From positions 1 through 37,209 of the IMG/VR virus record IMGVR_UViG_3300017774_003532: DNA of 37,209 nucleotides. The stretch is one strand, 5' to 3'. Numbering within the stretch: the stretch's first letter is position 1; each line of letters opens with the position of its first letter. The stretch is from a virus. Taxonomy: Duplodnaviria; Caudoviricetes. A program made the translations under genes and the position numbers. Shown one piece after another: positions 14,579 through 33,237 of this stretch. The notes beneath the pieces are model-generated. The model made no database searches. It was not told where the DNA came from and saw only the letters and a program-made list of their open reading frames with translations.

Positions 14579-15709
14579 ATGGCAACGATACTCTTAAGAA
14601 CCGCTAATTCGATCTCTAGTCCAGGGTCTACCGTAAAGGGTACACCTCTGACTAATTCGGAAGTGGACAATAACTTTTCTAATATTAATATTACGCTTGG
14701 GGTTCTTTCTAATCTAAGTACATCGGCCAATGCGAATTTGGTTGCTGCAATTAACTCTGTTACCTATGCGGTTGGTTCTGACGGTAATGTCTTAACCAGT
14801 AATGGTAATACATGGTTCAGTAGTGCATTACCTGCCAGTGGTTTGTCTTATGTAACCAAGTCTGCCAATTACACTATTAATAATAACGAAGGTGTTCTCG
14901 CTAATACTGCAACTGGTGCATTCACAGTCACATTACCTTTAAGTCCTGTCGTCGGTAATCAGGTGGTGGTAGCTGACGCATATGGAGATTTTGGTGCAAA
15001 CGCATTGACCGTTGGACGTAACGGGTCTACTATTGCAAATGTCGCAGAAGATTTAATAATTGACATTAACGGTGTAAGCGTACAATTAGTCTATACCGGT
15101 TCTACATGGGATGTATTTGCCCAAGTAGGTGCAAACGGTGGAACGGCTGTAACTTTAGATGGTACCCAGACATTAACTAATAAGACTTTAACCAGCCCTA
15201 CTTTAACGACTCCAGCTTTAGGTACCCCTTCTGCAATTGTCTTAACCAACGCTACCGGTACCGCTAGTAGTTTAACTGTTGGTAAGATTACTATAACAGA
15301 TGAAACAGCATCAGTATCAACCTATTACCCCATGTTTACAAGCAGTAATACAGGTGGGTTGAACGCAAATGTTTCTTCTACCGGTTTGACATTTACACCT
15401 TCTACCGGTCTTTTAACATCAACTGACTATAACTCATCTTCAGATATGACGTTAAAACAAGATATTACACCTATTGTAAATCCTTTAGATATTATAAGTC
15501 AATTGAATGGGTTTGGATTTACATGGGTAAAGAGCAAAGAAAAAGCATACGGGTTATCAGCTCAAGAAGTTGAAAAAGTAATTCCTGACGTAGTTAGGCA
15601 AAGACCTGATGGTACCAAGGGTATTAATTATATGAACCTGACTGCTTTCTTAGTTGAAGCAATCAAGGATTTAAAACAAGAGATAGAAGAGCTTAAGAAG
15701 CCTAAATAA
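14579..15709 (+). CDS. Tail-fibre protein with gp9/gp10-like domain and C-terminal peptidase S74 intramolecular chaperone
   Basis: N-terminal KGTPLTNSEVDNNF; central TVTLPLSP..G..V...D..G.F..N.LTV.RNG..I; C-terminal SSD..LKQDI...G..FTW...GLSAQEVEKVIPDVV...INY...LVEAIKDL. Confidence 0.8.
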   Translation: MATILLRTANSISSPGSTVKGTPLTNSEVDNNFSNINITLGVLSNLSTSANANLVAAINSVTYAVGSDGNVLTSNGNTWFSSALPASGLSYVTKSANYTINNNEGVLANTATGAFTVTLPLSPVVGNQVVVADAYGDFGANALTVGRNGSTIANVAEDLIIDINGVSVQLVYTGSTWDVFAQVGANGGTAVTLDGTQTLTNKTLTSPTLTTPALGTPSAIVLTNATGTASSLTVGKITITDETASVSTYYPMFTSSNTGGLNANVSSTGLTFTPSTGLLTSTDYNSSSDMTLKQDITPIVNPLDIISQLNGFGFTWVKSKEKAYGLSAQEVEKVIPDVVRQRPDGTKGINYMNLTAFLVEAIKDLKQEIEELKKPK

Positions 15710-15722
15710 TAACAACAATAAC

Positions 15723-15742
15723 CGAGTTCAAAAGGAACGAAG
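15723..15742 (+). promoter_or_regulatory. Putative RBS-overlapping RNA hairpin (copy 1)
   Basis: C-GA-GTTC-aaaag-GAAC-GAA-G immediately before ATG 15743; a second copy lies at 32381-32404. Confidence 0.5.
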
Positions 15743-16492
15743 ATGGCAATTAAAATAGGCGGAACAACCGTCATAGACGACAGTCGTGCTGCAAACGTAG
15801 TTTCAATAACGGGTCTTACAACCCCTCTCTCAATAGCTCAAGGTGGAACTGGTTCCTCCTCTACAGCTCACACCAGCCTTACTACTAACGTTTCAGGTAC
15901 TTTACCTGTAGCTAACGGTGGTACAGGAGTTACTACAAGTACAGGAACGACCAGTGTCGTACTATCAAATTCACCCACGTTGGTCACACCAGCCCTTGGT
16001 ACGCCAAGCTCTGGTAATTTAGCTAACTGTACATTCCCAACACTGAATCAAAATACATCTGGTTCAGCAGCCACATTTACAAGTACTTCACAAAACTCTC
16101 AGTTTAACTCTGTAGGTGTAGGTACAGCAGCTTCGGCTACAGCAGGTGAAATTCGCGCAACCAATAACATTACAGCCTATTACTCTTCTGATAGAAAATT
16201 CAAAGAGAATGTACGGGATATACCTAATGCATTAGAAACAGTTAACAGCATTGGCGGTAAGTTATTTGACTGGACGGATTCTTATATTGAATCTAAGGGT
16301 GGTGCAGATGGGTACTTTGTACAAAAAGCTGACTTTGGTGTTATTGCCCAGGATGTACAAGCCGTTTTTCCAGTAGCCGTTCGTACACGTGAAGACGGTA
16401 CACTTGCTGTTGACTACGAAAAACTTGGCGTACTGGCTTTTGCCGCATTGATTGAACTAACTAAACGTGTTGAGGCACTGGAGAATAACTAA
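15743..16492 (+). CDS. Short tail-fibre protein with C-terminal peptidase S74 chaperone
   Basis: MAIKIGGTTVIDDSR; L.(I/V)A.GGTG repeats; GEIRATNNITAYYSSDRKFKEN...FDW...GVIAQDVQAVFP.AV..REDG.LAVDYEKL. Confidence 0.8.
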   Translation: MAIKIGGTTVIDDSRAANVVSITGLTTPLSIAQGGTGSSSTAHTSLTTNVSGTLPVANGGTGVTTSTGTTSVVLSNSPTLVTPALGTPSSGNLANCTFPTLNQNTSGSAATFTSTSQNSQFNSVGVGTAASATAGEIRATNNITAYYSSDRKFKENVRDIPNALETVNSIGGKLFDWTDSYIESKGGADGYFVQKADFGVIAQDVQAVFPVAVRTREDGTLAVDYEKLGVLAFAALIELTKRVEALENN

Positions 16493-18000
16493 TGGCTCTT
16501 AATGCTTCTGGTGCAATTAGTCTTGGTGGAGCAACTGCAGGGCAGTCTATTAACCTTGAATTAGGTCTTTCCGCTACCGCTCTAATCGGTTTGAACGATG
16601 CTGCCGTTCGTACACTTTTGGGTAAAGCAAGTGGTGCTATTTCTTTGAATGATGCCTACGGTAAAAGCAATCGCACAGATTTTTTCTCAACTTGGTCGAA
16701 CTCGCTGAATATAAGCCAGATGTTTACTGGTGCTATTGATTCTTCTGGTAACATTACATCGTTTATGAAAAGTGGGACACAGAGCAATCGTACTGCTATT
16801 CTACGACTAAACTCTGCCGGCGCAGTGATATCTCAACAGTATGTTGGGTCCATTGGTGGGTCAAGTGTACCTAGTGAGTGTTTTTACTCAAGCGTTTCTG
16901 ATTCTTTTTACTTTACAACCCTTAGCTCAAGCAGTGGGTATTTCACCGTTATGCAAGTTAGTACATCAGGTACTTTGATTGGCTCAGGTGCTATACGTCC
17001 TAATACGCAGGCCGGCAATAGTGCTAGACTCAATGCAGTTGCTATTAATTCTAGTGGTGAACTTCTTGTTAGTTTTAGGTTTTATTATTCTTCAGGTAAA
17101 AGCCAATATACTAAGCCTATGACAGCAAAGTTTTCTGGTAATTTGGGTACCGGGAGATCATCGTACAATAGTCAAGCTGTTTGGCTCAAAACCACAGAAA
17201 ACGCGAATGGTGGTGGGAATGGTTATGGAACAATGCTTTTTGAATATAGTGGTTTTCTCTATGGATTTGGCACCAATAGTAGTAATTATCCCAGTTTAAT
17301 AAAATACAATCTTGATGGCACTGGAGTTACTCCTACAAATGCCAATAATGTAATGACAATGTCTGGCGGCAATTATTACGGCGGCGCCGCATTTTATAAC
17401 AGTAGTGAAAATGCTGTATATGGTTCTGGGCAGTGGACAGATGCAAATGCATCTGGCATAGTGGTTAAATTTGTTGGAACTACACCAACTTGGGCTCGCT
17501 TACTTTCTAATACCCAAGGTGGTTGGCAACACATGACTCTTGACTCATCTAATAACGTATATGTTTTTGCCGGAAAATATAACACATCGGAGAGAGCTAT
17601 TGTTGCAAAGTATAACTCAAGTGGCACATTGCAATGGCAACGCTATTTTAGGTTTACTGGAACCAATATTATTGGTTATTCAAGATTTTCCGGCTTGTCT
17701 GTTTACAGCGGGGGAGGCACATTATGCCTTCATCTAACAATAGCAAGAAGTGGATCCCCGTATACTTATGGTACTATTATAACGTATCCAACCGATGGAT
17801 CTAAAACAACAGGGGCAATAACTAATTCTGAAGGATTAACACTAACTATTGAAACCGCTGCTGAAACATCATCAACCAAGACTTTTACAACTTCAGATTA
17901 TCATCATTCCAGCACGAGTAATTATAATCCTGAATATGGGTTAGGTGGCTTCTCCATCGACGGAACAGAAACGTCAAATAACGTAACACAATCAATATGA
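16492..18000 (+). CDS. Putative receptor-binding/fibre-tip protein, Ser/Gly/aromatic-rich, possibly a beta-propeller
   Basis: N-terminal MALNASGAISL...INLELG...ISLNDAYGKS; blade-like repeats (IDSSGNI, INSSGEL, LDSSNNVYV, KYNSSGTLQWQR). Confidence 0.55.
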   Translation: MALNASGAISLGGATAGQSINLELGLSATALIGLNDAAVRTLLGKASGAISLNDAYGKSNRTDFFSTWSNSLNISQMFTGAIDSSGNITSFMKSGTQSNRTAILRLNSAGAVISQQYVGSIGGSSVPSECFYSSVSDSFYFTTLSSSSGYFTVMQVSTSGTLIGSGAIRPNTQAGNSARLNAVAINSSGELLVSFRFYYSSGKSQYTKPMTAKFSGNLGTGRSSYNSQAVWLKTTENANGGGNGYGTMLFEYSGFLYGFGTNSSNYPSLIKYNLDGTGVTPTNANNVMTMSGGNYYGGAAFYNSSENAVYGSGQWTDANASGIVVKFVGTTPTWARLLSNTQGGWQHMTLDSSNNVYVFAGKYNTSERAIVAKYNSSGTLQWQRYFRFTGTNIIGYSRFSGLSVYSGGGTLCLHLTIARSGSPYTYGTIITYPTDGSKTTGAITNSEGLTLTIETAAETSSTKTFTTSDYHHSSTSNYNPEYGLGGFSIDGTETSNNVTQSI

Positions 18001-18308
18001 GTATATACATTAAACTTTTAACACTTGAATATCCTCGTCACGAGGGTGACATTCGTCTAGAATATCCTGAAATTCTAGAAACACAAACAGGAGATGATTT
18101 TCCTTGTCCTTCTACATATGCCAAAGTAGAATGGGTAGATCCTCCTGAAATAAACCCTAATACTCAAAAATATTTTGAACTTTCACCGACTCAAGTCGGA
18201 GGTATTTGGACTATAGTATGGGGTGTAAAAGATTTAACTGATGAAGAAAAGGAGGATCTTCAAATCCTTCGAGGTCTTGGAAATAGTATAAGTGTGGAGC
18301 GTTTATGA
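17997..18308 (+). CDS. Hypothetical protein, possibly tail-fibre assembly/accessory
   Basis: EYP...YAKV....PP..NP.TQ...E..P....G.W...W.V.DLT.EE; ATGA-coupled to the upstream fibre gene. Confidence 0.5.
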   Translation: MSIYIKLLTLEYPRHEGDIRLEYPEILETQTGDDFPCPSTYAKVEWVDPPEINPNTQKYFELSPTQVGGIWTIVWGVKDLTDEEKEDLQILRGLGNSISVERL

Positions 18309-18661
18309 ATGTTAAAAATGAAGTAAAAATTGTAGATAATGTTTTTGTTAAAATGTTTTATTTAGAGCAAGTTGGTGATATAATTACTGGCCACGCTCAC
18401 ACTTTTGATCATATCACTTTGCTTGCAAGAGGAAGAGTAATGATGAGTGCTGAAGGTGTTGATAAGGAACACGTTGCACCCAAACTTATTGTAACACCAA
18501 AAGGTCTAATCCACAAATTTGAAGCCTTGGATAAAAACTGTATTCTTTGTTGTGTTCATGCAATTCGTGATGGAGATGGGGAAGAAGATGTAGCTCCTCC
18601 CGGTATCACAGAAGAGCAAGCCAATTTGTTTATGGAACAGTTTCCTTTGACTCAAGAATGA
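18305..18661 (+). CDS. Cupin-fold protein (paralog 1)
   Basis: GHAHTFDHITLLARG...HKFEAL...CCVHA cupin metal motifs. Confidence 0.75.
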   Translation: MNVKNEVKIVDNVFVKMFYLEQVGDIITGHAHTFDHITLLARGRVMMSAEGVDKEHVAPKLIVTPKGLIHKFEALDKNCILCCVHAIRDGDGEEDVAPPGITEEQANLFMEQFPLTQE

Positions 18662-19014: not shown

Positions 19015-19022
19015 TTTAACTT

Positions 19023-19583: not shown

Positions 19584-19615
19584 TTAATTGATACTAAATT
19601 TAATGAAAGAAAAAT

Positions 19616-20586: not shown

Positions 20587-20609
20587 TAATGTAAATATTG
20601 AGGAATAAA

Positions 20610-20942
20610 ATGGCTGTCATCTCCAACCTAGCAATCGATCAAGGAACAACATACAGTGTTACTATAACTGTAACTGATGACACCGGTTCGGCCAGGGATT
20701 TGACCAACTACACCGTTCGTTCCCAGATGAGAAGGTCTTATTATACCAATGCAAATGTCTCCTTTTCAGCCAACATTGCCAGTCCTACCGATGGTACGGT
20801 TTCTCTAGATCTAACCAATACCCAGACCAGTGCCTTAAAACCCGGTAGATACGTTTATGATGTCGAATTAGTTTCCAATGTATCAACAGTCGAAAGACTG
20901 GTGGAAGGAATCGTCACCGTTTACCCAGAGGCTACAAGATAA
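20610..20942 (+). CDS. Small beta-sandwich virion adaptor protein (BppU-N-like by motif resemblance)
   Basis: NLAIDQGTTY...DLTNYTVRSQMRRSY...L.LT.TQT.AL.PGRYVYDVEL...RLVEGIVTV.P; start placed at ATG 20610 after RBS GAGGA. Confidence 0.6.
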   Translation: MAVISNLAIDQGTTYSVTITVTDDTGSARDLTNYTVRSQMRRSYYTNANVSFSANIASPTDGTVSLDLTNTQTSALKPGRYVYDVELVSNVSTVERLVEGIVTVYPEATR

Positions 20943-21167
20943 ATGGCAACTAACAACATTTCTGTAATTCAAGGATCAAAACCATCCGCAAGTATTACAG
21001 TTAACAAATCAACAGGGGGAAAGTTGCAATCGCTTGCCGATGTAAACACCTCCGACCTACAAGATGGTTATACTATTATTTACGATACAACTACAAATAA
21101 GTGGGTCTCCCAACCTATTTCAGCTGGCGTTGTATCAGTAACAAACGTGGATGGCGGAACGTACTAA
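20943..21167 (+). CDS. Mini fibre/linker protein ending in VDGGTY
   Basis: LQSLADVNT...DGYTIIYDTTTNKW fibre repeat; C-terminal VDGGTY. Confidence 0.65.
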   Translation: MATNNISVIQGSKPSASITVNKSTGGKLQSLADVNTSDLQDGYTIIYDTTTNKWVSQPISAGVVSVTNVDGGTY

Positions 21168-21190: not shown

Positions 21191-22891
21191 ATGGCAACCA
21201 CAATTCAAATTAAGCGCTCCCCCAATGTAACGGCGGCAACTACTACCGACTTACTTGAAGGTGAATTAGCCTATTCGTACGATAAGAGTAACGATGGTTC
21301 AGGGGCCAAGTTATATATTGAGGTACAAGATGCCGGTGGTAATGAAACTATTCATACCATTGGTGGTAAGTACTATACATCTAAAGTAGATGCTGCCACC
21401 AATCAGAGTACCGTTAATACAATTGTTTCACGTGATTCAGCAGGTAACTTTTCTGCTAACACTATTACTGCTACCACATTTTTTGGTAATATTGTCGGTA
21501 CCATTAACGGGGTTGCATCATCGGCGAATAAATTAGAAACTGCCAGACGCATTAACCTGGGTGGTGATCTTCAGGGTAATGTATTATTTGATGGTACCCA
21601 AGATGTTACCATTTTTGCAAATGTAATCAGCAATTCTGTTACCCTTGGTACTGATACAATTGGTGACTATGTTGCAAACCTAACAGCTGGTACCGGTGTT
21701 ACTTTATCTGGTCAGGCTGGCGAATCTTCTAACATTACAGTCAGTATTGGGCAGGCAGTTGGTACGTCTTCAGATGTAACCTTTAATACTGTCACATCAA
21801 GATTGTTTGGCCAGGCTAACACTGCCACCGCCTTACACACTGGTAGATACATTAATTTGTCTGGTGATATCTCAGGTTCTGCCTACTTTGATGGTACAGG
21901 TAATGCAGACATTTCTGCAATTGTAATTCAATCCAATTCTGTTAATCTTGGTACTGATACCACAGGGGATTATGTTGCGAACTTGACTGCAGGTTCAGGT
22001 ATTGCTTTAACTAATGCTGGTGGTGAATCTGCTAACGTTACAGTTGGTTTATCTACCTCAGGTGTATCCGCTTCAACATACGGTGGTACAACAAACATAC
22101 CTGTATTCACAGTTGATACATTCGGTAGGGTCACATCAGCTTCTAACGTAGCTGTTTCCACCTCCTTCACATTAGCTGCAAATGCTGGTACCCCTGATAC
22201 TCTAAGTGGTGGGGACACACTAAGAATTACCGGTGGTACAGGTATCAATACAGTTGTATCTGATAATACGATTTCAGTATTTAACACCGGTGTTACATCT
22301 CTTTCTGGTACTGCCAATCAAGTTACAGTTAGCGCATCCAATGCCTCTGTTACGTTAGGGTTACCCAATGATGTTGTTGTTAACAATAACCTGACAGTAC
22401 AGGGTAATTTGTTTATAAAGGGCACGGCAACAACATTACAGACTACCACAGTTGTAGTCAATGACTCTTTAGTTAAATTTGGAAATGCCAATCCAGCTAA
22501 TTCGTTGGATCTTGGTTTTTATGGTGAATATGTTGACGGTGGTACTAAAAAGTACACTGGTATTTACAATGATCATACAGACAATAAGTTTAGATTATTT
22601 GCAGGTTCTACTGTTGATCCCGCAGGTAACGTAGTCAATACATCTGACGCCGGGTACACAATTGCCACCCTGGTTGCTAACTTAACCGGTGGTACGGTAT
22701 CTGGTTTAACTGCTAACATCGCCGTTGGTGATGGTGGTACTGGTCGTGGTACCTTTACAACCAATGGTATTTTGTTTGGTAATGCCACCGGTGCATTGAG
22801 GGTAACTACTGCAGGCACTGCCGGTCAAATACTACAGGTTGGTAACGATGGTGTGCCGTTGTTTGCAAGTGTAGATGGCGGAACATACTAA
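21191..22891 (+). CDS. Tail-fibre protein (N-terminal IQIKRS domain, C-terminal VDGGTY)
   Basis: MATTIQIKRS...L.EGELAY; duplicated R.INL.GD..G...FDGT...SV.LGTDT.GDYVANLTAG; TYGG...IPVFTVD..GRVT.AS. Confidence 0.75.
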   Translation: MATTIQIKRSPNVTAATTTDLLEGELAYSYDKSNDGSGAKLYIEVQDAGGNETIHTIGGKYYTSKVDAATNQSTVNTIVSRDSAGNFSANTITATTFFGNIVGTINGVASSANKLETARRINLGGDLQGNVLFDGTQDVTIFANVISNSVTLGTDTIGDYVANLTAGTGVTLSGQAGESSNITVSIGQAVGTSSDVTFNTVTSRLFGQANTATALHTGRYINLSGDISGSAYFDGTGNADISAIVIQSNSVNLGTDTTGDYVANLTAGSGIALTNAGGESANVTVGLSTSGVSASTYGGTTNIPVFTVDTFGRVTSASNVAVSTSFTLAANAGTPDTLSGGDTLRITGGTGINTVVSDNTISVFNTGVTSLSGTANQVTVSASNASVTLGLPNDVVVNNNLTVQGNLFIKGTATTLQTTTVVVNDSLVKFGNANPANSLDLGFYGEYVDGGTKKYTGIYNDHTDNKFRLFAGSTVDPAGNVVNTSDAGYTIATLVANLTGGTVSGLTANIAVGDGGTGRGTFTTNGILFGNATGALRVTTAGTAGQILQVGNDGVPLFASVDGGTY

Positions 22892-22908: not shown

Positions 22909-22938
22909 TATTATTAATTGTTTTCTCTTGAGGTGAGT

Positions 22939-23613
22939 ATGGAAGATCCAAGTAAGTTTTTTAATGTAATAATAGACAGAACTAATCAAAAATTAAATTC
23001 TTTTCAGGCGCAGATCATCGTACTTGAGTCACAACTTCAGATGGCTAATGATGAGAGAGATTCCTACAAGAAATATGTTGAGGAAATGCCATCATTACAC
23101 CATGACGTTGAAGCTCATAATAAGTTAAAAAATGATTATGCTGCATTAGAAGATAAATTACATGCAGTGTTATTGGCAAAGGATGAGCAGCATAAAGAGG
23201 CTGTGGAACAACTACGCAATGATTTTGTAATAAAATATAAAGATCTTGAAGATTCTATTTTAGAATTAAAAGAACAGCACAGACAGGTGTTAGATGTACA
23301 ACGTGATGATTTTGTAATAAAATATAAAGATCTTGAAGATTCTATTTTAGAATTAAAAGAACGTCACAGACATGTATTAGATTTACAACGTGAAGAAATT
23401 GAAAAGAAGTACGAACATCTTATTGTTTCTTCAAAAGAAAAAGATGAACAACTTCAATTTGCCTTAGATAAAAACGAAGTACAAGCTGAGAAATTAAAAA
23501 TATTGCAATCGAATATCAACGATAGTACGAATTTTATTCGTGATCAAAACGAAACACTTCTACAAGAAATAAAAAGACTTAAAGCTGAAATGGCTGAAAT
23601 GTCTAGCAAATAA
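22939..23613 (+). CDS. Coiled-coil protein (possible fibre chaperone) with internal 29-aa duplication
   Basis: E/K/L/Q-rich heptads; ATG 22939 follows RBS GAGGTG (the listed TTG 22918 start is less likely). Confidence 0.65.
   Translation: MEDPSKFFNVIIDRTNQKLNSFQAQIIVLESQLQMANDERDSYKKYVEEMPSLHHDVEAHNKLKNDYAALEDKLHAVLLAKDEQHKEAVEQLRNDFVIKYKDLEDSILELKEQHRQVLDVQRDDFVIKYKDLEDSILELKERHRHVLDLQREEIEKKYEHLIVSSKEKDEQLQFALDKNEVQAEKLKILQSNINDSTNFIRDQNETLLQEIKRLKAEMAEMSSK
23221..23393 (+). repeat. 87-bp-period tandem duplication (DFVIKYKDLEDSILELKE)
   Basis: gattttgtaataaaatataaagatcttgaagattctattttagaattaaaagaac is identical at 23221 and 23308. Confidence 0.92.
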
Positions 23614-26246
23614 TGGCAACAGAAATTCAACTAAAACGGTCTTTTACATCCGGGCAAATTCCGGGTGCTGCTAATGTTTTGGTTGGAGAACCAGTACTTA
23701 ACCTGGTTGACAGGGTACTGTATACCAAGGACAACAGCGGCAATATCGTCGTTATCAGTTCTGGTAATGCCTCTACTATTGCATCTTTGGCGTTCAATGC
23801 TGCCAATGTGGCAGCTGCATACACAGTTGCCGGGGTAGCCGGTAACGTATCTAACATTCAATTGGCTTCTGGAATTACCTCTTCCGGTCTATTAACAACA
23901 GCCAATATATCAGAATTAACCAATCTTTATTTTACCAACGCCAGGGCAAGAGAATCTATTACCATTGCCTCTGGTAATGTAAATGGTAAGGGTTCTTACG
24001 ATAGCGCTACTGGTGTTATATCGATTAATGCCGCCAATGTAACCGTTTCCTCTAATGCTCCAACTAACCCCTATGTAGGTGATCTGTGGATCCATGCAGA
24101 TACTGCCGTTGAATATTTGTTCTTTGGCGACGGGGATACCTTTCAATGGGTTGAACTTGGAGAACCAAGTACTGGTAGTTCGGAGTCAACGATAACTGTA
24201 GCCGGGGTCACCGGAAATGTATCCAATGTTCAATTGGTATCTGGTATTTCTCAAACAGGTATACTGACTACAGCAAACGTCACAGAAGTAACAAATTTAT
24301 ATTTTACTAATGCGAGAGCCGTTGCTTCATTAACTGCCGGTCAAAGTATTACTATTGATGCTAATGGCAGAATTAATTCTACTGCCACTGGGAGTTCTTC
24401 TACCTACGGTGATTCCAACGTTATATTATTAGGTTATGCCACTAATGCCAATGTTGCTTTAAAAGCAAACGTCGCCGATCTTAAGACGGCCAACGTTGCA
24501 GAGCTTACAAATTTATATTTTACCAATTCAAGAGTTTATTCTAACGTTACTCAATTAGGGTATATTACTTCGGCCTCTCTATCTGGTTATGCTACCAACA
24601 CTCAATTGGGTACTTATGCTACTAATGCACAACTGGGTTCCTACGCAACTAATGCCCAACTAGCTAGTTATGCTACTAATGCACAATTAACCTCGTATGC
24701 AACTACAACTAATGTAGCATTAAAGGCTAATGTTGTTGATTTAACTACGGCTAATGTAACAGAGAATACTAATCAATACTTTACCAATGCTAGGACAATA
24801 GCTGCCATTACCAATACTACTTTAAGTAATTTAACAGTATCAGGTAATATTACACTGAATGGTCAGCCAACAACTTATGGATATGTTAATGGTAGTTATT
24901 TGTTTGCTCTTAATAATGCCGATCAGTCAGTTGGACAAAATGGTGCAGTTAACTTCCAAACTACAAGTGCAAGTAATGGTAGTCTTATAACTAAGACTAG
25001 CAACTCCCAGATAACTCTAGCATCAGGTAATAGTTATAAATTAAGAGCCGTAATAGGACGTTTACAATCAAGTTCAACTTGGGCTCAATTTAGATGGTAT
25101 GATGTGACCAACAGTGCCTATGTTGGCTCAGAAGGATTCAGTGAAGTAGTGAATTCAACAGGGGCAATTGGATCAACCAATGTGCCTACAGCCTACGTGA
25201 CGCCTAGTGTAAATACTACTTATGAACTAAGACAGACTACAGTTAACACAATTACTGTTAATGCTTATGCTTCAATGGAAGTTGAACAAATAAATCCCAC
25301 CATAGCAGTTCAAGCCACTGCCACTGGCACGGTTGCTACAAACTATATAGCAACCACAAGAACAGGAACAAACCAAACTATCACCACCGGCGGAACCGAT
25401 ATTGTATTGAATACCACAGACAAATCTTCTGGTAGTTCAGTCACATACAATACCAGCACTGGTGTTTATACACTGACTGCTGGTACGACTTACGAGTTGT
25501 CATTTACTCCAAGTTGGAACTATCCTTCTGGTGGTAGTTCTTATATTCAGTATGATTGGGTTGACGCCACTACTAACACTTCACTGGACAGTGATAGTGG
25601 ATCATTTTGCACTGCCTACGCTTACACCTACACTTTTGCCTCACACAACCATAACATAATCAGCAAGTTGGTTTATACTCCCTCAACCAATCAAACTGTA
25701 AAAATTAGAGCAACTGGTACAAACAATACTGGAGCAGTTTTGACCGCAGGCAGTAGTGCTTATGTCAAGGCAATGAACGCAATCTTTGCCCTCAACGCTC
25801 TAGCCACAATGGCCACAACTGGTAATGTCAGTGTTGGAGGCGATCTAAGTGTTACAGGAAATGTCACAGGTACTAATCTAACTAGTAAAACCACAGGGTC
25901 TTGGACAGTGACCACAGGAACAAATACTTACAGCATCACAGTTCCTATAAACGGCAATTATCAAATTTGGGTTAGAGCCAACATCCCTAACGGTATCATA
26001 GCTTACCAGGCCACTGTAGGTGTTACTAATACCAATGTGCCAGTGCTGGGTACTCAGCGAGCATGGAACTACACTGGTGGCGGAAGTCCAATATTACTAA
26101 CAAGTATGCCAACGCAGATTGTAGGAGCAGAAGGCACAATATCAACTACTGTGGTATCAACCACTACCGCTAACCGGTTAGATTTTGGTATTAACAATAC
26201 TAGTGGGTCATCTCAAACAGTATATTGGGGTTATGTTACATTATAA
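23613..26246 (+). CDS. Tail-fibre protein (N-terminal IQLKRS domain, NLYFTN repeats, beta-rich C-terminal head domains)
   Basis: MATEIQLKRS; four LxTAN[IV]xExTN[LQ]YFTNxR repeats; YATNAQL tandem; C-terminal beta-rich domains. Confidence 0.75.
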   Translation: MATEIQLKRSFTSGQIPGAANVLVGEPVLNLVDRVLYTKDNSGNIVVISSGNASTIASLAFNAANVAAAYTVAGVAGNVSNIQLASGITSSGLLTTANISELTNLYFTNARARESITIASGNVNGKGSYDSATGVISINAANVTVSSNAPTNPYVGDLWIHADTAVEYLFFGDGDTFQWVELGEPSTGSSESTITVAGVTGNVSNVQLVSGISQTGILTTANVTEVTNLYFTNARAVASLTAGQSITIDANGRINSTATGSSSTYGDSNVILLGYATNANVALKANVADLKTANVAELTNLYFTNSRVYSNVTQLGYITSASLSGYATNTQLGTYATNAQLGSYATNAQLASYATNAQLTSYATTTNVALKANVVDLTTANVTENTNQYFTNARTIAAITNTTLSNLTVSGNITLNGQPTTYGYVNGSYLFALNNADQSVGQNGAVNFQTTSASNGSLITKTSNSQITLASGNSYKLRAVIGRLQSSSTWAQFRWYDVTNSAYVGSEGFSEVVNSTGAIGSTNVPTAYVTPSVNTTYELRQTTVNTITVNAYASMEVEQINPTIAVQATATGTVATNYIATTRTGTNQTITTGGTDIVLNTTDKSSGSSVTYNTSTGVYTLTAGTTYELSFTPSWNYPSGGSSYIQYDWVDATTNTSLDSDSGSFCTAYAYTYTFASHNHNIISKLVYTPSTNQTVKIRATGTNNTGAVLTAGSSAYVKAMNAIFALNALATMATTGNVSVGGDLSVTGNVTGTNLTSKTTGSWTVTTGTNTYSITVPINGNYQIWVRANIPNGIIAYQATVGVTNTNVPVLGTQRAWNYTGGGSPILLTSMPTQIVGAEGTISTTVVSTTTANRLDFGINNTSGSSQTVYWGYVTL
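24585..24705 (+). repeat. 27-bp (9-aa) tandem repeat xxYATN[AT]QL, about 4.5 copies
   Basis: GYATNTQL-GTYATNAQL-GSYATNAQL-ASYATNAQL-TSYAT, with synonymous divergence between copies. Confidence 0.85.
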
Positions 26247-26335: not shown

Positions 26336-29300
26336 ATGGCAACGACACTAAATTTTCCATCAAGCCCGGCCCTAAATGACACGTATGCATTTGGTGGGAA
26401 GACATGGACATACAATGGTTCAGCATGGAAATTAAATTCCACCGCTTTAACTACAACCGGGGTAACTGAAGGTACTAACCTTTATTTTACAAATGCCCGT
26501 TCAAGAGCTGCAATTTCGGTTGCTGGTTCTGGTTCTTATGATAGCGCTACAGGTGTTATCACTGTTACTGGGGGCGTTACATCAGTTAACGGTCAAACAG
26601 GTGCTGCTACCGGTTTTGCTACTACTGCAAACAGCCTTTCGCAATTTGCTTCTACCACATCTGCACAACTTGCTACACTGATTTCTGATGAGACAGGTAC
26701 TGGTTCCGTTGTATTCTCTGCATCACCTGCACTGACAGGTACACCAACTGCTCCTACTGCTGCCAATAACGTATCGACAACTCAAATTGCTACTACAGAG
26801 TTCGTTAAGAACACCGTTGCAAATTTAATTGATGGTGCACCTGCATTATTAGATACTCTTAATGAGCTTGCTGCAGCTATTAATGATGATGCTTCTTTCT
26901 CTGCAACTATTGCTAATACAATTAGTGTAGCTCAAACTACTGCAGGTAATGCCTTTGGTCAAGCAAACACTGCTACCCTTGCTGCTTCCTCTGCTTTTGG
27001 ACAAGCCAATACTGCCACCCTAGCTAGTGCTGCAGGGTATGCTCAAGCCAATACAGCTACTTTAGCTGCTTCTGCCGCATTCGATTCTGCTAACACCAAG
27101 GTTGCCACGGTTGCTGGTGTTACAAGCACAACAATTTCCAATGCTCAATTGGCATCTGGTATTTCTTCTTCTGGTATCCTTACAACTGCCAATGTATCAG
27201 AACTAACTAACCTGTACTTCACCAATGCTCGTTCACGTGGTGCAATTTCCGTAGCAGGTGCTGGTTCTTACGACAGCAGTACTGGTGTTATTACTATTAC
27301 CGGCGGTGTTTCATCGGTTGGTGGTGCCACAGGTGCAGTATCCAATGCTCAATTAGCAACAAGTGTTATTACATCAGGTGTTCTTAATACATCTAACGTT
27401 GCTGAAGGTGCAAATCTTTATTTTACAACCTCAAGAGCTCGCAATTCAATTGATGCAGCAGCTAATGGAGGAATTACCTATAGTTCGGCAACTGGTAATG
27501 TTTCTCTAAGCGCTTCTGGTGTTACAGCTAACACATACGGTGGTGCATCAAAAGTACCAGTATTTACAGTTGACTCAACTGGTAGAATCACATCTGCTGC
27601 AAACGTTAACGTTGCCGGTGTTTCTACATTCAGCGCTTCTGGTAATACATTTACAATTGGAACTGCCGATGGCGGTTCGTTCTCTGCAAGTATTCAACCT
27701 AATTCTGTTGAGCTTGGTAGAGACACAACTGGTGCGTACGTTGCCTCAATGACAGCTGGTAATGGTATCACAGTAGGTACAGCAACCGGTGAAGGTTCAA
27801 CACCTGTTATTACTAACACCGGTGTTCTTACTGTTAATGGTCAGTCTGGTAATGCAACTGGTTTTGCAACCACAGCTAACTCATTAGCACAATTTGCTTC
27901 TACTACTTCTACCGAACTTAGAACTCTTGTTTCTGATGAAACTGGTTCAGGGTCATTGGTGTTCTCTGATAGCCCAGTTCTAATTACTCCTAACATCGGT
28001 ACAGCTTCTTACGCAGTATTGACTAACGCCACTGGTCTTCCAGTAGCAACCGGTATTTCTGGTCTTGGTTCTGGTGTAGCAACATTCTTAGCTACCCCTT
28101 CTTCTGCTAACCTTGCAGCCGCGGTCACCGATGAAACTGGAACAGGCACTCTTCTGTTCTCTAACTCACCAGTCATGGTAACTCCTAACATTGGAACACC
28201 ATCGTACTTGAACCTAGCGAATGCTACAGGTCTATCTATAAATGCTATTTCAGGACTCAACGCTAACGTTGCAACATTCTTAGGTCAAGTATCTACTAGT
28301 GCTAACTTAGCAGCTTTAATTACTGATGAAACTGGTACAGGATCATTAGTATTTGGTACAAGCCCTGCAATTACTACATCGTTAACTACACCTAGTTCAT
28401 CTTTTGACTTAGTCAATGGTACTGCAACTACAGTTAATTTTGCTGGTGCAGGTACATCAGTTAATATTGGTTCATCAGCAGGAACTGGTAATACTAATAT
28501 TAGAAATAATTTGTTTGTTGCAGGTAACTTGTTTGTTCAAGGTACCACAACAACTGTATCATCTACAACATTAGATGTTGCAGATAAGAATCTTACATTA
28601 GCTAAAGGCGCAGGTTCTAGTGCTGGTGCTGATGGTGCAGGTATCACGATTGATGGTGCTAATGCAACCTTCAACTACGTACACGCCACTACCGCATTTA
28701 CATCTAGCCAAGATATTGATCTTGCTACCGGTAAAGCTTATGAGATTAATAATACCCAGGTTCTAAGTGCAACTGGCCTTGGTCCTAACGTTGTTGCATC
28801 TAACTTAACATCAGTTGGTACAATTACTACAGGTGTATGGAATGGTACAGAAATTGGTACTGCTTACACAGCTGCTAAAGTTACCTCAGTTAATGGACAA
28901 GTTGGAGCTGCAACAGGATTCGCAACAACTGCAAACTCATTAGCACAATTTGCATCTACTACATCTGCTCAACTTGCAACATTAGTTAGTGATGAGACCG
29001 GTACTGGTAATCTGGTATTCTCTACAAACGCTGTATTGACTACACCTAACATTGGAACACCATCGTACTTAAACCTAGCAAATGCTACAGGCTTATCTTT
29101 AAATGCTATTACAGGTTTTGGTGCAAACGTCACAACGTTCCTAGCAGATCCAACGAGCGCAAAGCTTGCATTTGCCATTACCGATGAAACAGGTTCTGGT
29201 AATGTGGTGTTTAGTAACAGTCCAGCTCTGGTAACTCCTAACTTGGGTACACCCTCTGCGGCTACTCTCACCAATGCAACTGGTTTGCCAATCAGTACTG

Positions 29301-30976
29301 GTGTATCCGGTCTGGGTGGAAACGTTGCGACCTTGTTGAGCGGTGAAGCTAAGACAGGTGTTATTGCTACTACATACGGTAGTGCTTTGAACATTCCGGT
29401 CATTACTGTTGATGAATACGGTAGAATTTCTTCTGCTGCCAACGTAGCCCTGGTATCAGGTGTATCTTCCGTCGGTGGGGCAACCGGTGCTGTATCTAAT
29501 GCTCAACTGGCTTCTGGTATTACCACATCTGGTGTATTGACAACTGCTAACGTAGCCGAAGTAACTAATCTGTATTTTACCAATGCAAGATCTAGAGCTT
29601 CTGTATCTGCTGGTACAGGTATCGGGTATGATAGCAGTACAGGTGTAATCTCTTCTACAATTACTCAGTATACTGATACTAATGCAAGAGCTGCACTATC
29701 TATTAATGGTACCAAAGGCTCTTATAACAGTAGTACTGGTGTATTTGACTTTGCCAATATTGCTAACGTTACAGTATCTGCAAGTGCTCCAGGTTCACCA
29801 AATGTTGGTGATCAATGGATTGATGAAGATGACGGTACAGCATACTTGTACTTCAACGATGGTACAAGCTCACAGTGGGTTGAACAGGCCACAGGTATGA
29901 TTGTAAGTTCATTGGTAGAGTCGGTTGGTGGTTCAACTGGAGCAATCTCTAACGTGATGCTTGCAACTGCTCTAACTGGTCAGAATATTACAGTCGGTAA
30001 TTTAATTCCTTCCGGTAATTTAATTCAAAGTCTAGGTAGCCCGACTAATCAGTTTAAAGATCTTTATCTAGCTGGTAATACTATTCACCTGGGTGGTTTG
30101 CAACTTACAAACAATGCCGGGGGCTTGTCGGTGGTAACGCCAGGTGGATCCGGAGCTGCTGATCTAACAGCTGGTAATGTTACTGTTAATGGGAACTTAA
30201 TCGTCCTTGGCTCAACTACTACAGTTTCTTCTACGACCCTTGAAGTTGCAGATAAAAATATTACTATTGCCAAGGGTGCTGCCAACAGTACTGCTGCTGA
30301 TGGTGCAGGTATTACTGTTGATGGTGCGAGTGCCACACTTAACTACGTACATGCTACGACAGCCTGGACATCTAGTCAAGATATTAATCTGGCTTCTGGT
30401 AAAGTATTTAAGATTAACGGTACAACGGTTGCTGGTACATCTGGTGTAACTGCTGCCTCTTACGGTAATGCTACTTTAATACCATCATTTACAGTTGATA
30501 CATTTGGTAGAATTACTGCTGCTTCTAACGTTGCTATTACAACCGGTACAACAATTACCGATGATACAACAACTAATGCAACAAGATTCTTGCCATTTAC
30601 ATCTGCATCCTCAGGTTCTATAAGTGCAGTCAATGTAGCTTCTTCTAAGTTGACATTCAATCCATCTACAGGTCAATTGACTGCAACTGACTTGAATTCT
30701 TCTTCTGACGCAAGATTGAAGAAAGATGTTTTAACCGTTACATCGGCACTTGATAAAGTTGATGCTCTACGTGGTGTTACCTTCACATGGAAAGACAGCA
30801 ACGTTAAGGCAATCGGCTTGATTGCCCAGGAAGTTAAAGAGGTCTTGCCAGAGATTGTTTCTACAGACGACGACGGCTACATGGGCATCAGATATACCAA
30901 CGTGATTGGTGTATTGGTTGAAGCCATTAAAGAATTGAAAGCAGACTTCGAGGCATACAAAAAGACACATCCTTAA
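26336..30976 (+). CDS. Long repetitive tail fibre with C-terminal peptidase S74 chaperone
   Basis: MATTLNFPSSP...TWTYNGSAW; repeats DETG[ST]G.LVF, GFATTANSL.QFASTTS, NLYFTNAR, ADGAGIT[IV]DGA; SSDARLKKD...LRGVTFTW...GLIAQEV.EVLPEIV...Y...LVEAIKEL. Confidence 0.85.
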   Translation: MATTLNFPSSPALNDTYAFGGKTWTYNGSAWKLNSTALTTTGVTEGTNLYFTNARSRAAISVAGSGSYDSATGVITVTGGVTSVNGQTGAATGFATTANSLSQFASTTSAQLATLISDETGTGSVVFSASPALTGTPTAPTAANNVSTTQIATTEFVKNTVANLIDGAPALLDTLNELAAAINDDASFSATIANTISVAQTTAGNAFGQANTATLAASSAFGQANTATLASAAGYAQANTATLAASAAFDSANTKVATVAGVTSTTISNAQLASGISSSGILTTANVSELTNLYFTNARSRGAISVAGAGSYDSSTGVITITGGVSSVGGATGAVSNAQLATSVITSGVLNTSNVAEGANLYFTTSRARNSIDAAANGGITYSSATGNVSLSASGVTANTYGGASKVPVFTVDSTGRITSAANVNVAGVSTFSASGNTFTIGTADGGSFSASIQPNSVELGRDTTGAYVASMTAGNGITVGTATGEGSTPVITNTGVLTVNGQSGNATGFATTANSLAQFASTTSTELRTLVSDETGSGSLVFSDSPVLITPNIGTASYAVLTNATGLPVATGISGLGSGVATFLATPSSANLAAAVTDETGTGTLLFSNSPVMVTPNIGTPSYLNLANATGLSINAISGLNANVATFLGQVSTSANLAALITDETGTGSLVFGTSPAITTSLTTPSSSFDLVNGTATTVNFAGAGTSVNIGSSAGTGNTNIRNNLFVAGNLFVQGTTTTVSSTTLDVADKNLTLAKGAGSSAGADGAGITIDGANATFNYVHATTAFTSSQDIDLATGKAYEINNTQVLSATGLGPNVVASNLTSVGTITTGVWNGTEIGTAYTAAKVTSVNGQVGAATGFATTANSLAQFASTTSAQLATLVSDETGTGNLVFSTNAVLTTPNIGTPSYLNLANATGLSLNAITGFGANVTTFLADPTSAKLAFAITDETGSGNVVFSNSPALVTPNLGTPSAATLTNATGLPISTGVSGLGGNVATLLSGEAKTGVIATTYGSALNIPVITVDEYGRISSAANVALVSGVSSVGGATGAVSNAQLASGITTSGVLTTANVAEVTNLYFTNARSRASVSAGTGIGYDSSTGVISSTITQYTDTNARAALSINGTKGSYNSSTGVFDFANIANVTVSASAPGSPNVGDQWIDEDDGTAYLYFNDGTSSQWVEQATGMIVSSLVESVGGSTGAISNVMLATALTGQNITVGNLIPSGNLIQSLGSPTNQFKDLYLAGNTIHLGGLQLTNNAGGLSVVTPGGSGAADLTAGNVTVNGNLIVLGSTTTVSSTTLEVADKNITIAKGAANSTAADGAGITVDGASATLNYVHATTAWTSSQDINLASGKVFKINGTTVAGTSGVTAASYGNATLIPSFTVDTFGRITAASNVAITTGTTITDDTTTNATRFLPFTSASSGSISAVNVASSKLTFNPSTGQLTATDLNSSSDARLKKDVLTVTSALDKVDALRGVTFTWKDSNVKAIGLIAQEVKEVLPEIVSTDDDGYMGIRYTNVIGVLVEAIKELKADFEAYKKTHP

Positions 30977-31036: not shown

Positions 31037-31570
31037 ATGCCTTTAAATTTTCCCTCTTCGCCGGCGACAAGTACCACCTATACGTTCAATAATAAAACTT
31101 GGACATATAACGGTAATGCTTGGGCGTTATCGTCTGGGGGATCACTCAATACATCGTTAGTACCGGAAGGTAATAACTTATATTATACCAATACACGGGC
31201 AAGGGATGCAATAAGTGTATCTGGCTCTGGATCTTATGATAACAGTACCGGTATTATTACAATTACCGGGGGTGTCTCATCGGTAGGCGGAGCAACTGGG
31301 GCAGTATCAAATGCTCAATTGGCATCGGGTATTTCTAATGCTACCATCAGTAACCTTACTCTTTCAGGAAATGTGACTGCAGGCAATGTGACGCTTGCAA
31401 CAAATGGGGTGTTAAGATTTCCAGACGGAACGACGCAGAACACTGCAACTTCTGCTTCTGGCACCCTCATAAATATTATTACACGGACAGGCAATGTGGC
31501 GGTGGGTGCCCTGAATAGAACTATATCTATCCAAGGTAGATCCTCCAACACCACGGTTGCTATTGCATAA
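31037..31570 (+). CDS. Short fibre module (N-terminal LNFPSSP domain)
   Basis: MPLNFPSSP...TWTYNGNAW is paralogous to the 26336 N-terminus; NLYYTN repeat; RFPDGT.Q. Confidence 0.75.
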   Translation: MPLNFPSSPATSTTYTFNNKTWTYNGNAWALSSGGSLNTSLVPEGNNLYYTNTRARDAISVSGSGSYDNSTGIITITGGVSSVGGATGAVSNAQLASGISNATISNLTLSGNVTAGNVTLATNGVLRFPDGTTQNTATSASGTLINIITRTGNVAVGALNRTISIQGRSSNTTVAIA

Positions 31571-31578
31571 GGTTAAAA

Positions 31579-32316
31579 ATGGCGAATAGATTTCCATTAG
31601 TTGTAGACAGTATTAATTTAAATATTAAAGAATTGCCATCTGGGGATAACCTGGACTTGACTGGAAGTGCTGTTGTTAATGGGGCATGGCAGGGTAATTC
31701 AATATCAACAACATATACGGATGCAAAGATTGTATCTGTATCCAATACTGCACCTATCTCTGTTGTTACATCTTCAGGTGCGGTAACGGTTGCATTGTTA
31801 AGTTCTGGTGTATCGGCTGCCTCATACGGTGGTACAGGTAACACAATTTCAATTACCGTTGATTCTTTTGGAAGAATCACATCTGCCTCTAACGTTTCAA
31901 CGACGACCGGGGTTGTAGCCGGGACCTACGGTGGTACCGCTGTTGAAGGGGTATTTACAGTAGATGCATTCGGTAGAATTACTGCTGCATCCAATGTTAC
32001 CGCCCAGGTTGCTAATACAAATATTACTGGTCTTATTACCAGTTCTCAAATTGCAAGCGTAGCAAACACCCAATTAACTGGTCTTGTAACTAGTGCGCAA
32101 ATTGCAAGTGTTGCTAACACCCAGATTACTGGTAATATTACTGCTTCTCAAATAGCACCTACCGGGGTCACTGCTACTACCTACGGTGGTGCATCAAGTA
32201 TTCCTGCTATCACCATTGATGCACAGGGTAGAATTACGGCTGCATCCAATGTAGCCGTTACAGCCGGTGTAACAACAGGTAAATCAATTGCTATGGCTAT
32301 TGTATTTGGTGGTTAA
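31579..32316 (+). CDS. Short fibre module ending GKSIAMAIVFGG
   Basis: MANRFPLVVD...IKELPSGDNLDL; three YGG....T[VI]D..GRIT.ASNV repeats; QIASVANTQ repeats. Confidence 0.75.
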   Translation: MANRFPLVVDSINLNIKELPSGDNLDLTGSAVVNGAWQGNSISTTYTDAKIVSVSNTAPISVVTSSGAVTVALLSSGVSAASYGGTGNTISITVDSFGRITSASNVSTTTGVVAGTYGGTAVEGVFTVDAFGRITAASNVTAQVANTNITGLITSSQIASVANTQLTGLVTSAQIASVANTQITGNITASQIAPTGVTATTYGGASSIPAITIDAQGRITAASNVAVTAGVTTGKSIAMAIVFGG

Positions 32317-32372: not shown

Positions 32373-32380
32373 ATATTGAG

Positions 32381-32404
32381 CGAGTCAAATCAAAAAGGAC
32401 GAAG
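32381..32404 (+). promoter_or_regulatory. Putative RBS-overlapping RNA hairpin (copy 2)
   Basis: C-GA-GTC-aaatcaaaaag-GAC-GAA-G immediately before ATG 32405. Confidence 0.5.
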
Positions 32405-32614
32405 ATGCCCATCAAAATAAACAATACCACGGTAATAGACGATTCACGTAATATTACTAATGTGGCCAACGTAAGTGTATCTGGTACTATTTCCGGTAAC
32501 GTTACAGCCAGTGGTACTATTTCAGCTGCATCTTTCTCCGGTTCTGGAGCAAACTTAACAGGAGTTGCCTCATTAGGAAAAGCTATTGCAGTTTCCTTAG
32601 TCTTAGGAGGCTAA
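32405..32614 (+). CDS. Mini fibre/linker: N-terminal IKIxxTTVIDDSR, C-terminal GKAIAVSLVLGG
   Basis: N-terminus paralogous to 15743; C-terminus paralogous to 31579 and 32619. Confidence 0.75.
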   Translation: MPIKINNTTVIDDSRNITNVANVSVSGTISGNVTASGTISAASFSGSGANLTGVASLGKAIAVSLVLGG

Positions 32615-32618
32615 ACAA

Positions 32619-32837
32619 ATGACGACTCTGTCATCCATACTCACCCCAACCAATATTGTTACTGCTGGCAGTACCACTACGTTGACCAATAAAACAATTG
32701 GTGTTTCTCAATTGAGTGGTGCTGTATCGATTAGTAATGGTGGAACCGGACAAACTACCGCTTCTGCTGCCCTCAACGCCCTGGGGGGCGCATCAACCGG
32801 TAAGTCAATTGCTATGTCAATAGTATTTGGCGGATAA
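32619..32837 (+). CDS. Mini fibre/linker ending GKSIAMSIVFGG
   Basis: TLTNKTI and ISNGGTG fibre motifs; RBS GGAGG inside the previous gene's end. Confidence 0.75.
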   Translation: MTTLSSILTPTNIVTAGSTTTLTNKTIGVSQLSGAVSISNGGTGQTTASAALNALGGASTGKSIAMSIVFGG

Positions 32838-32868
32838 ATAATCAATAATGACATCAAGGAAATTTTAA

Positions 32869-33237
32869 ATGGCCATCCCTAATATCGTCAACGTTAGCAG
32901 TATCCAGGCAAAGAGCTTTGGTAACACACTAACAACATCTAATGCTTTGGTACTTGTAAATGGTGCAAGTTCTGGTAACTGTATCAAGATCAATAACATT
33001 GTTCTTTCTAATTACAGCAATACCGCAACCACTGCTAATGTGGAATACAACAGAGCGGCAGCCGGCACCGGTACTGCCACCTTCTTGGTATCCCAGGTAT
33101 CTATCCCCTCTGGCGCCTCATTGATTGTCACAGACAAGTCAACTGGTTTCTACATGGAAGAAGATACAAGTATTAAAGCGGTTGCTACTACAGCATCTGC
33201 AGTACAGATTTTTGTATCGTTCGAAGTAATCAGCTAA
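32869..33237 (+). CDS. Small beta-sandwich adaptor-like protein (MAIPNIVNV...)
   Basis: KINNIVLSN...VSIPSGASLIV.DKST.FYMEED.SI...VSFEVIS; RBS AAGGA; GATAAATA at 32833-32840. Confidence 0.65.
   Translation: MAIPNIVNVSSIQAKSFGNTLTTSNALVLVNGASSGNCIKINNIVLSNYSNTATTANVEYNRAAAGTGTATFLVSQVSIPSGASLIVTDKSTGFYMEEDTSIKAVATTASAVQIFVSFEVIS

What the first reader, a model, noticed from the sequence alone, without database searches (positions are those of the whole stretch)
14579..33237. Candidate plug-and-socket docking code for a branched, multi-gene tail-fibre tree
Seen: distinct internal or C-terminal motifs occur in the same copy number as distinct N-terminal motifs of downstream genes, usually the next fibre gene. 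(a) C-terminal VDGGTY* x2 (20943, 21191) and N-terminal MATxIQ[IL]KRS x2 (21191, 23613). (b) Internal SxxAPxxPxVGDxWI...Y....DG...QWVE x2 (~24048-24156, ~29776-29884) and N-terminal LNFPSSP..TWTYNGxAW x2 (26336, 31037). (c) TDxNSSSD-S74 x2 (14579, 26336) and N-terminal IKIxxTTVIDDSR x2 (15743, 32405). (d) TAYYSSD-S74 x1 (15743) followed by MALNASGAISL (16492). (e) C-terminal GK[SA]IAxx[IL]VxGG x3 followed by one adaptor (32869) and Gly-rich heads. Inference: each pair is a cognate interface. Fibres would be assembled as a chain or tree from separate, swappable polypeptides (20943>21191>23613>26336>31037/32405>...>adaptor>Gly-rich/lectin tips). This resembles the gp10-domain branching of Kuttervirus CBA120 and Klebsiella phage K64-1 tailspikes, but with several apparently orthogonal motifs. 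No canonical gp9/gp10/gp11/gp12 genes were recognised in the window.
Basis: partly seen in the sequence, partly recalled or inferred. Interest (0 to 1): 0.85.

Follow-up and report, generated by a model that had tools for sequence, protein, structure and literature searches.

The report
Matched joints chain branched phage fibres
The tail-fibre genes of this aquatic T4-like phage carry five kinds of matched end-and-start motifs that pair up the same way in many other aquatic phages, so they likely act as joints that clip separately made fibre pieces together, and one internal joint, predicted to bind, would let the fibre branch.

Summary
All motifs are present as stated. The window is the baseplate and fibre region of a T4-like myophage. 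Viral contigs were picked by one half-motif only and the neighbouring gene read. Each 'socket' is followed by its own 'plug' class: a 81/134, b 39/96, c 26/54, d 14/48, e 72/77. The other sockets give 1/275, 2/313, 0/355, 0/361, 8/332. Pair a is homologous to the T4 gp36/gp37 joint. A 3:3 model of internal pair b scored 0.77 against 0.02 for the best control (mark reached by 116/157 solved, 2/215 mismatched pairs). b/B proteins occur in a published cyanophage virion proteome.

Corrections: there are likely two roots, not one chain. Copy numbers match only loosely (equal in 15/30 contigs). Many proteins carry both halves of one class, so class alone cannot fix the order. Binding and orthogonality were not shown at the bench. 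Peptide-docked branching is known from Klebsiella and Ackermannviridae phages; pairs b–e matched no paper, Pfam family or solved structure in my searches. This scan has noted the idea before on other DNA, including pairs like a and e. Verdict: new variant of a known kind.

The parts
14579..15709 (+). Root fibre 1: N-terminal anchor motif (14636-14677), C-terminal c socket at the S74 chaperone site (15416-15457)
   Evidence: anchor genes with c are followed by a C plug in 22/22 rows
15743..16492 (+). Extender: C plug (15743-15787), d socket at the S74 site (16169-16204)
   Evidence: the body behind the C plug differs in close relatives
16492..18000 (+). Tip protein with D plug; probable beta-propeller head
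   Evidence: weak DUF5122 hit below cutoff; single-sequence model unusable, pLDDT 37
20610..20942 (+). Collar-type fibre attachment protein, likely root 2 (ATG start; the longer TTG ORF starts at 20598)
   Evidence: phrog_1084 and phrog_3304 'L-shaped tail fiber assembly'; 29% identical to S-CREM2 ORF84, a virion protein; next gene ends in an a socket in 23/36 rows
20943..21167 (+). 74-aa linker ending in an a socket (21147-21164)
21191..22891 (+). Fibre segment: A plug (T4 gp37 N-terminal homolog) and a socket (22871-22888)
22918..23613 (+). Probable coiled-coil protein inside the second a/A junction; possible folding helper (inferred), probably starting at ATG 22939
   Evidence: similar small genes sit in 17/43 second junctions
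23613..26246 (+). Fibre: A plug, internal b socket (24051-24155), own C-terminal domain; branch point 1
26336..30976 (+). Long fibre: B plug (26336-26428), internal b socket (29780-29884), c socket with S74 (30680-30721); branch point 2
31037..31570 (+). Side arm: B plug (31037-31123); C-terminal candidate f socket (31478-31567)
   Evidence: f tentative
31579..32316 (+). Extender: candidate F plug, e socket (32278-32313)
32405..32614 (+). 69-aa converter: C plug to e socket
32619..32837 (+). 72-aa protein: conserved N-terminus with unidentified partner, e socket
32869..33237 (+). Adaptor (E), single jelly-roll fold
   Evidence: model pLDDT 93; best Z 10.0 Ena pilin 7a02 (rmsd 5.0, 105 aligned), Z 9.7 KHP40 cement 7dou (rmsd 3.1, 106 aligned)
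33245..34114 (+). Gly-rich tip with N-terminal GG-x-I-type motif
   Evidence: PF21722; motif follows the adaptor in 39/90 vs 44/3526 background
34122..37209 (+). Gly-rich, LamG, SPRY, DUF7483 tip (runs off the contig end)

Best explanation
These genes encode fibre pieces whose ends and starts carry five classes of matched motifs, and each pair likely forms a joint by which separately folded pieces would clip into two fibre trees, with the internal b module predicted to bind the B start and likely acting as the branch point. Shown: the motifs, their class-specific pairing in gene order, the homology of pair a to T4 gp36/gp37, and virion presence of b/B homologs in S-CREM2 (published). Predicted: a trimeric b ring binds three B starts through invariant aromatic residues. 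Inferred map, tree 1: baseplate > 14579 -c/C- 15743 -d/D- 16492. Tree 2: collar-type 20610 > 20943 -a/A- 21191 -a/A- 23613, whose b site takes 26336. The b site of 26336 takes 31037 (> 31579 -e/E- adaptor) and its c end takes 32405 (-e/E- adaptor); the adaptor carries the tips 33245 and 34122. Inferred from established S74 chemistry: c and d become the mature C-termini after the chaperone cuts itself off, so these joints would open only after the fibre has folded. My odds per pair: a 0.9, b 0.85, e 0.85, c 0.7, d 0.6; real branching at b 0.65.
For: Socket-only DNA scans. Regex-only table: cognate next gene a 49/121, b 26/60, c 12/38, d 11/51, e 66/71; off-diagonal 0, 4, 1, 0, 0. HMM table: 81/134, 39/96 (57/86 within two genes), 26/54, 14/48, 72/77; background A 72, B 73, C 10, D 23, E 20 of 3666. 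Within 5 kb downstream: 59/69, 62/67, 21/34, 13/29, 32/33. Plug-only scans: B has a b match within 6 kb upstream in 49/55 (32 full, 17 partial), a/c/d in 0; C has c within 6 kb in 17/24, d in 0. Natural swaps on one anchor: c>C 22/22, e>E 8/8, b>B 2/2; in L691/L693 both c and C are replaced. S74 genes picked independently: c 9 C and 0 D of 27; d 5 D and 0 C of 16. T-even check: gp37 scores 46-50 bits on the A profile and gp36 ends D-F-G-x-[YF] in 4/4 phages; gp36 binds the gp37 N-terminal region (PMC3004832, passages); score 0.77 vs best control 0.02, runs agree in >=85% of contacts, partner pLDDT >=78; mark reached by 116/157 solved and 2/215 mismatched pairs (calibration only roughly applicable). 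b/B counts in 50 contigs: rho 0.88; presence agrees in 26/27 contigs not picked for b. S-CREM2 virion proteome (PMC10665884 Table 3): 4/4 b proteins, 2/3 B proteins (one with a single peptide).
Against: No bench test of binding. About half of b, c and d sockets have no cognate plug in the next gene (57/96, 28/54, 34/48), and d lacks D within 5 kb in 16/29. One close lineage (L682, L684, L685, L687; also L760, L763) keeps a C plug after an anchor fibre with no c socket. In plug-only loci the previous gene has strict c in only 14/38 and full b in 11/65. Counts are loose: b=B in 15/30; sockets per gene vs plugs nearby rho 0.09. 69 proteins hold both A and a, 37 both B and b, so class does not fix the order. 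Rows were thinned at 70% identity but are not phylogenetically independent, and the plug profiles were built from these same loci.
Confidence: 0.72

Rival explanations
1. The motif pairs are recombination cassette borders: a conserved gene end plus the next gene's conserved start travel together as one DNA block during fibre shuffling, with no protein contact.
For: Adjacency is the main signal; C plugs persist after loss of c in one lineage; fibre genes share many repeats.
Against: Pairs hold when another gene intervenes (17/43 second a junctions; 57/86 b within two genes). b is internal, often far from the gene end. Pair a matches a known physical joint. The b/B model uses the invariant residues.
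Confidence: 0.1
2. The joints are real but the product is a set of alternative linear fibres: same-class plugs compete for one site (26336 or 31037; 15743 or 32405; three e proteins for one adaptor), with no second-level branching.
For: Two copies per class; loose stoichiometry; three e sockets for one adaptor; G004 has two c and one C.
Against: 26336 carries B, an internal b and a terminal c, which gives two exits from one protein. Cultured phages have tandem b sites followed by runs of B genes: S-CRM01 three sites then three B genes among the next four; S-H34 three sites then five B genes.
Confidence: 0.13
3. Plugs such as B, C and D are only folding or trimerisation caps of their own protein, and each binds a common hub, not the upstream gene product.
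For: b also occurs in baseplate wedge proteins (S-H34, S-CREM2 ORF122); B and b are weakly alike (hhalign probability 21%).
Against: The socket class, not the anchor, predicts the next plug on one shared anchor. b in the wedge is still a b/B joint.
Confidence: 0.05

Closest known systems
T4 long tail fibre, gp36-gp37 joint (PMC3004832, passages read)
   Same: The A plug is homologous to gp37 residues 4-57 (E 2.8e-16); gp36 ends in a D-x-G-x-aromatic motif like socket a; same gene order.
   Different: Used twice in series here, hung from a collar-type protein instead of gp34/gp35. No solved structure matched the 23613 A plug.
T2/S16 gp37 with gp38 adhesin (PMC9608196, passages on S16 gp38; gp37 chaperone cleavage recalled)
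   Same: An S74-type fibre is followed by a tip protein with its own N-terminal attachment region, as in c/C and d/D; Gly-rich heads occur too.
   Different: The D plug does not align with gp38 (hhalign probability 0.2%). T2 and STML-198 gp37 have other residues at the site. Here two S74-site classes each predict a different partner.
Klebsiella podophage KP32/K11/KP34 branching domain plus conserved peptide (PMC13352976, abstract and section 21)
   Same: An internal site in fibre 1 binds the N-terminal peptide of fibre 2; shown there by engineering.
   Different: One joint type and two RBPs there; here five or more classes and a 35-residue internal module. Homology to the KP32 domain was not tested directly.
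CBA120 TSP1-4 (PMC8825819, abstract) and phiKp24 hyperbranched fibres (PMC9700779, passages)
   Same: Multi-level branched receptor-binding complex encoded by clustered genes.
   Different: Those use T4 gp10-like XD domains and depolymerase tailspikes; no such family hit here.
T5/DT57C LtfC collar with LtfA (PMC10713586, passages)
   Same: 20610 hits the PHROG named for this assembly protein; short N-terminal strands of the next gene could add to its sheet (inferred).
   Different: Myophage; position on the virion unknown; no PDB sequence match.

Membership tests
T4 gp36/gp37 joint (pair a) | N-terminal domain homologous to gp37 residues 1-57 | tested here: met
   The profile from 112 plugs scores T4 gp37 48 bits, 21191 50 bits, 23613 47 bits; T2, STML-198, PhT2 46-50 bits
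T4 gp36/gp37 joint (pair a) | Upstream partner ends in a D-x-G-x-aromatic motif | tested here: met
   4/4 T-even gp36 (one with an extra terminal Ser); window 2/2. Short motif, so homology rests on position and pairing.
T4 gp36/gp37 joint (pair a) | Physical end-to-end binding of the trimers | not tested
T4 long tail fibre (gp34-35-36-37) | gp34, gp35 and full gp36 homologs present | tested here: inconclusive
   No such family among the listed hits, but PHROG output was cut to 5 per protein and the contig is a 37-kb fragment
gp10-like (XD2/XD3) branched tailspike systems | gp10-like domains in the primary fibre | tested here: inconclusive
   No Pfam/PHROG gp9/10 hit; the b module is only 35-45 residues with no relevant PDB sequence match; the fibres were not folded for a structure search
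gp10-like (XD2/XD3) branched tailspike systems | Beta-helical depolymerase tailspikes as branches | tested here: not met
   Tips are Gly-rich, LamG, SPRY, DUF7483 and a probable propeller; no lyase or hydrolase family hit
T2/S16 gp37-gp38 adhesin tip (pair d) | S74 chaperone at the fibre C-terminus | tested here: met
   PF13884 in 14579, 15743, 26336, with S-D-x-x-x-K intact
T2/S16 gp37-gp38 adhesin tip (pair d) | gp38-type N-terminal attachment domain | tested here: not met
   hhalign probability 0.2% against STML-198 gp38; no PDB hit
KP32-type branching domain / conserved peptide (works like pair b) | Internal site binds the N-terminal peptide of the next RBP and is needed for its incorporation | tested here: inconclusive
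   Predicted binding; incorporation needs a bench test

The most novel reading that the evidence does not exclude
Aquatic phages share a portable kit of at least five non-cross-reacting joints, two of them unlocked by chaperone self-cleavage and one a three-way branch module, with I/L sub-types setting the order. Because same-class joints are duplicated, one genome builds a mixed population of dendritic fibres with different tips, and the whole fibre tree can be read from sequence and rebuilt at will.
Probability: 0.3. Interest if true: 0.87.

Novelty: new variant of a known kind. Interest (0 to 1): 0.68.

Why it matters
Most fibre genes of uncultured T4-like aquatic phages are unannotated and their architecture is unknown. 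If the joints are real, gene lists become assembly maps, and host-binding tips can be traced to their parent fibre. The scans estimate hundreds to about 2000 IMG/VR stretches per narrow pattern, so the kit is common. Cultured cyanophages (S-CREM2, S-CRM01, S-H34, S-CAM4) carry b/B, so it can be tested now. Small orthogonal three-fold connectors would also be useful parts for phage and nanofibre design, and pair a points to the residues of the T4 gp36/gp37 joint.

Tried and rejected
Pfam scans of the 52 b members and 38 adaptor members gave only scattered weak hits. C, c, d, e and a sockets were not searched against PDB or Pfam on their own. The ESM atlas gave only hypothetical clusters for the adaptor. 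My first idea that D is the gp38 N-terminus was rejected. The single-sequence model of 16492 failed. 'More sockets per gene means more plug genes nearby' was not supported. No upstream partner was found for the 32619 start in 6 rows. Paper searches for the motif strings found no phage paper. The library lacks most subscription journals, so absence from print is not shown. PMC13252515 (abstract, section 10 part 1) describes a fibre C-terminus binding the next protein's N-terminus in a mycobacteriophage; I did not test homology. No supplements were read; the S-CREM2 supplementary tables may bear on the annotation of ORF84. Dropped before counts: L615 (T4), L671 (same sequence and length as the window), genes cut by locus ends, next genes more than 300 bp away, and near-duplicates at 70% identity or more.
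Full report
Context. The window is a whole 37-kb virus record. Genes at 1063-14296 are T4-like baseplate genes: gp25, gp6, gp7-like, gp8 and a DUF4815 protein split over two ORFs. The gp6 is 44% identical to Pelagibacter phage HTVC008M and about 40% to Methylophilales phage Melnitz. In close relative G004 the same fibre cluster runs on to genes I recognise from recall as neck gp13-15. The host is unknown.

Observation. Counts of 1-3 in one window prove little, so I tested across genomes.

Cross-genome design. ORFs were called and the next gene's start classified. With fixed regular expressions the cognate plug followed in a 49/121, b 26/60, c 12/38, d 11/51 and e 66/71 thinned rows; wrong-class plugs numbered 0, 4, 1, 0, 0. 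With profiles and further loci the figures were 81/134, 39/96, 26/54, 14/48 and 72/77, against 1/275, 2/313, 0/355, 0/361 and 8/332 after other sockets. Seven of the eight b-to-E cases are genes that hold a second socket. The profiles were built from these loci and rows share ancestry, so the p-values overstate independence.

Reverse test. Two plug-only scans gave: B with a b match within 6 kb upstream in 49/55 (32 full, 17 partial; some loci overlap the b set), and C with c in 17/24. The immediately previous gene had strict c in 14/38 (five more show near-variants by eye) and d in 0/38.

Natural swaps. Among 60 rows sharing the 14579-type anchor (window and near relatives included), c was followed by C in 22/22, e by E in 8/8 and b by B in 2/2. 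Eighteen rows had neither. Five had a variant end before E. Five had C without strict c: one is a variant site, four are one lineage that has truly lost c, which is the best counter-example. In close relatives the protein behind the C plug varies in length and body while the plug stays.

Pair a is known in kind. A profile of 112 A plugs hits T4 gp37 residues 4-57 at E 2.8e-16, as well as it hits the window's own two. gp36 of T4, T2, STML-198 and PhT2 ends in D-F-G-x-aromatic. The T4 review states that trimeric gp36 binds the N-terminal region of gp37 (PMC3004832, passages).

Pair b is the branch candidate. It is internal, so a partner there leaves the fibre end free. A 3:3 model of window 24030-24164 with 26336-26455 scored 0.77 (best of three controls 0.02; contacts agree >=85%; partner pLDDT >=78). 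The mark was reached by 116/157 solved and 2/215 mismatched pairs, a calibration that fits this job only roughly. The closest contacts join the socket's Q-W-V-E strand to the plug's last Trp; Q, W, V and that Trp are invariant in the alignments. Controls were unrelated proteins, not other sockets. Counts over 50 contigs correlate (rho 0.88; 0.63 among the 30 with b; equal in 15/30; partial matches included). Cultured cyanophages not used for the profiles repeat the pattern. In the S-CREM2 virion proteome (PMC10665884, section 18), 4/4 b proteins and 2/3 B proteins in the regions I read were detected.

Pairs c and d sit at the S74 self-cleavage site. That cleavage after the Ser leaves the motif as the mature end is established knowledge for endosialidase-type chaperones (recalled, not tested here). 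The residues before the site predict the next gene's class with no cross-over (c 9 C, 0 D of 27; d 5 D, 0 C of 16). This works like gp37/gp38, but D is not a gp38 homolog. d is the weakest pair (13/29 within 5 kb).

Pair e is the tightest in gene order. The adaptor is a single jelly-roll, and the gene after it starts with a GG-x-I-type motif in 39/90 rows against 44/3526, suggesting a further adaptor-to-tip joint.

There are likely two roots: the 14579 anchor, and the collar-type 20610, whose next gene ends in socket a in 23/36 rows and whose S-CREM2 homolog is a virion protein followed by a single 4971-residue fibre. A candidate sixth pair joins 31037 to 31579 (4 of 5 rows by eye). Class alone cannot order the chain, since 69 proteins hold A and a, and 37 hold B and b. 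For a, first and second junctions differ at one plug position (I:L 28:6 vs 10:20, p=1e-4), and chains stop after two (next protein has a socket in 30/40 vs 3/37), hinting at sub-types. No such rule was found for b, c or e, so mixed assembly remains open.

Comparison and verdict. Docking of an N-terminal peptide on an internal site is shown for KP32-type phages (PMC13352976, abstract and section 21). gp10-like branching is described for CBA120 (PMC8825819, abstract) and phiKp24 (PMC9700779, passages). This system works like them but shows no gp10 family hit and no depolymerase tips. Pairs b-e matched nothing in my paper, Pfam and PDB searches, within the limits listed under Tried and rejected. 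Earlier unchecked notes of this scan proposed similar joints on other DNA; they were leads only. New variant of a known kind; interest 0.68.

Noticed in passing
window 7708-12429 and 12452-14296: The DUF4815/phrog_358 baseplate protein is split into two ORFs; it is split in most close relatives but one ORF in L714. The first part ends in a Thr-rich repeat.
   Followed up: partly
window 17997-20185: Small genes between the two fibre trees: two paralogous cupin-like proteins (weak phrog_12032) and two 2OG-Fe(II) oxygenase-like genes; similar sets sit at this place in relatives and could modify fibre proteins (guess).
   Followed up: no
window 33245 and 34122 N-termini: Tips in other phages often start with GG-x-I followed by a G-W-x-L-x-x-Q motif in one protein; here the two motifs appear divided between two adjacent tip genes.
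   Followed up: partly
L616, L677 (gene after the 23613 homolog): Relatives have an extra tip gene right after the 23613 homolog; the window has only an 89-bp gap, so 23613's C-terminal domain may be an empty docking site.
   Followed up: no
L616, L684, L693, L697, L732, L734: Another recurring junction: proteins ending in a W-I-I-S/T-G-x-G-L-T motif are followed by tips starting M-S-G; not in the window.
   Followed up: no
L742-L748: Anchor fibres ending in Cys-rich C-N-C repeats, a possible metal-binding end or another socket.
   Followed up: no
L751 (S-H34) and L755 (S-CREM2 ORF122): b sockets occur inside the large baseplate wedge protein, so B fibres may dock directly on the baseplate.
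   Followed up: partly
L369, L719, L735: A variant e end (A-L-A-I-A-L-G type) precedes a variant adaptor, a possible sub-type of pair e.
   Followed up: no
window 1-879: The cut first gene ends in a peptidase M15-like domain, directly before a PAAR gene: probably the baseplate spike with a cell-wall enzyme.
   Followed up: no
window 20203-20484 (-): 93-aa ORF on the minus strand between the two fibre blocks; no family hit.
   Followed up: no
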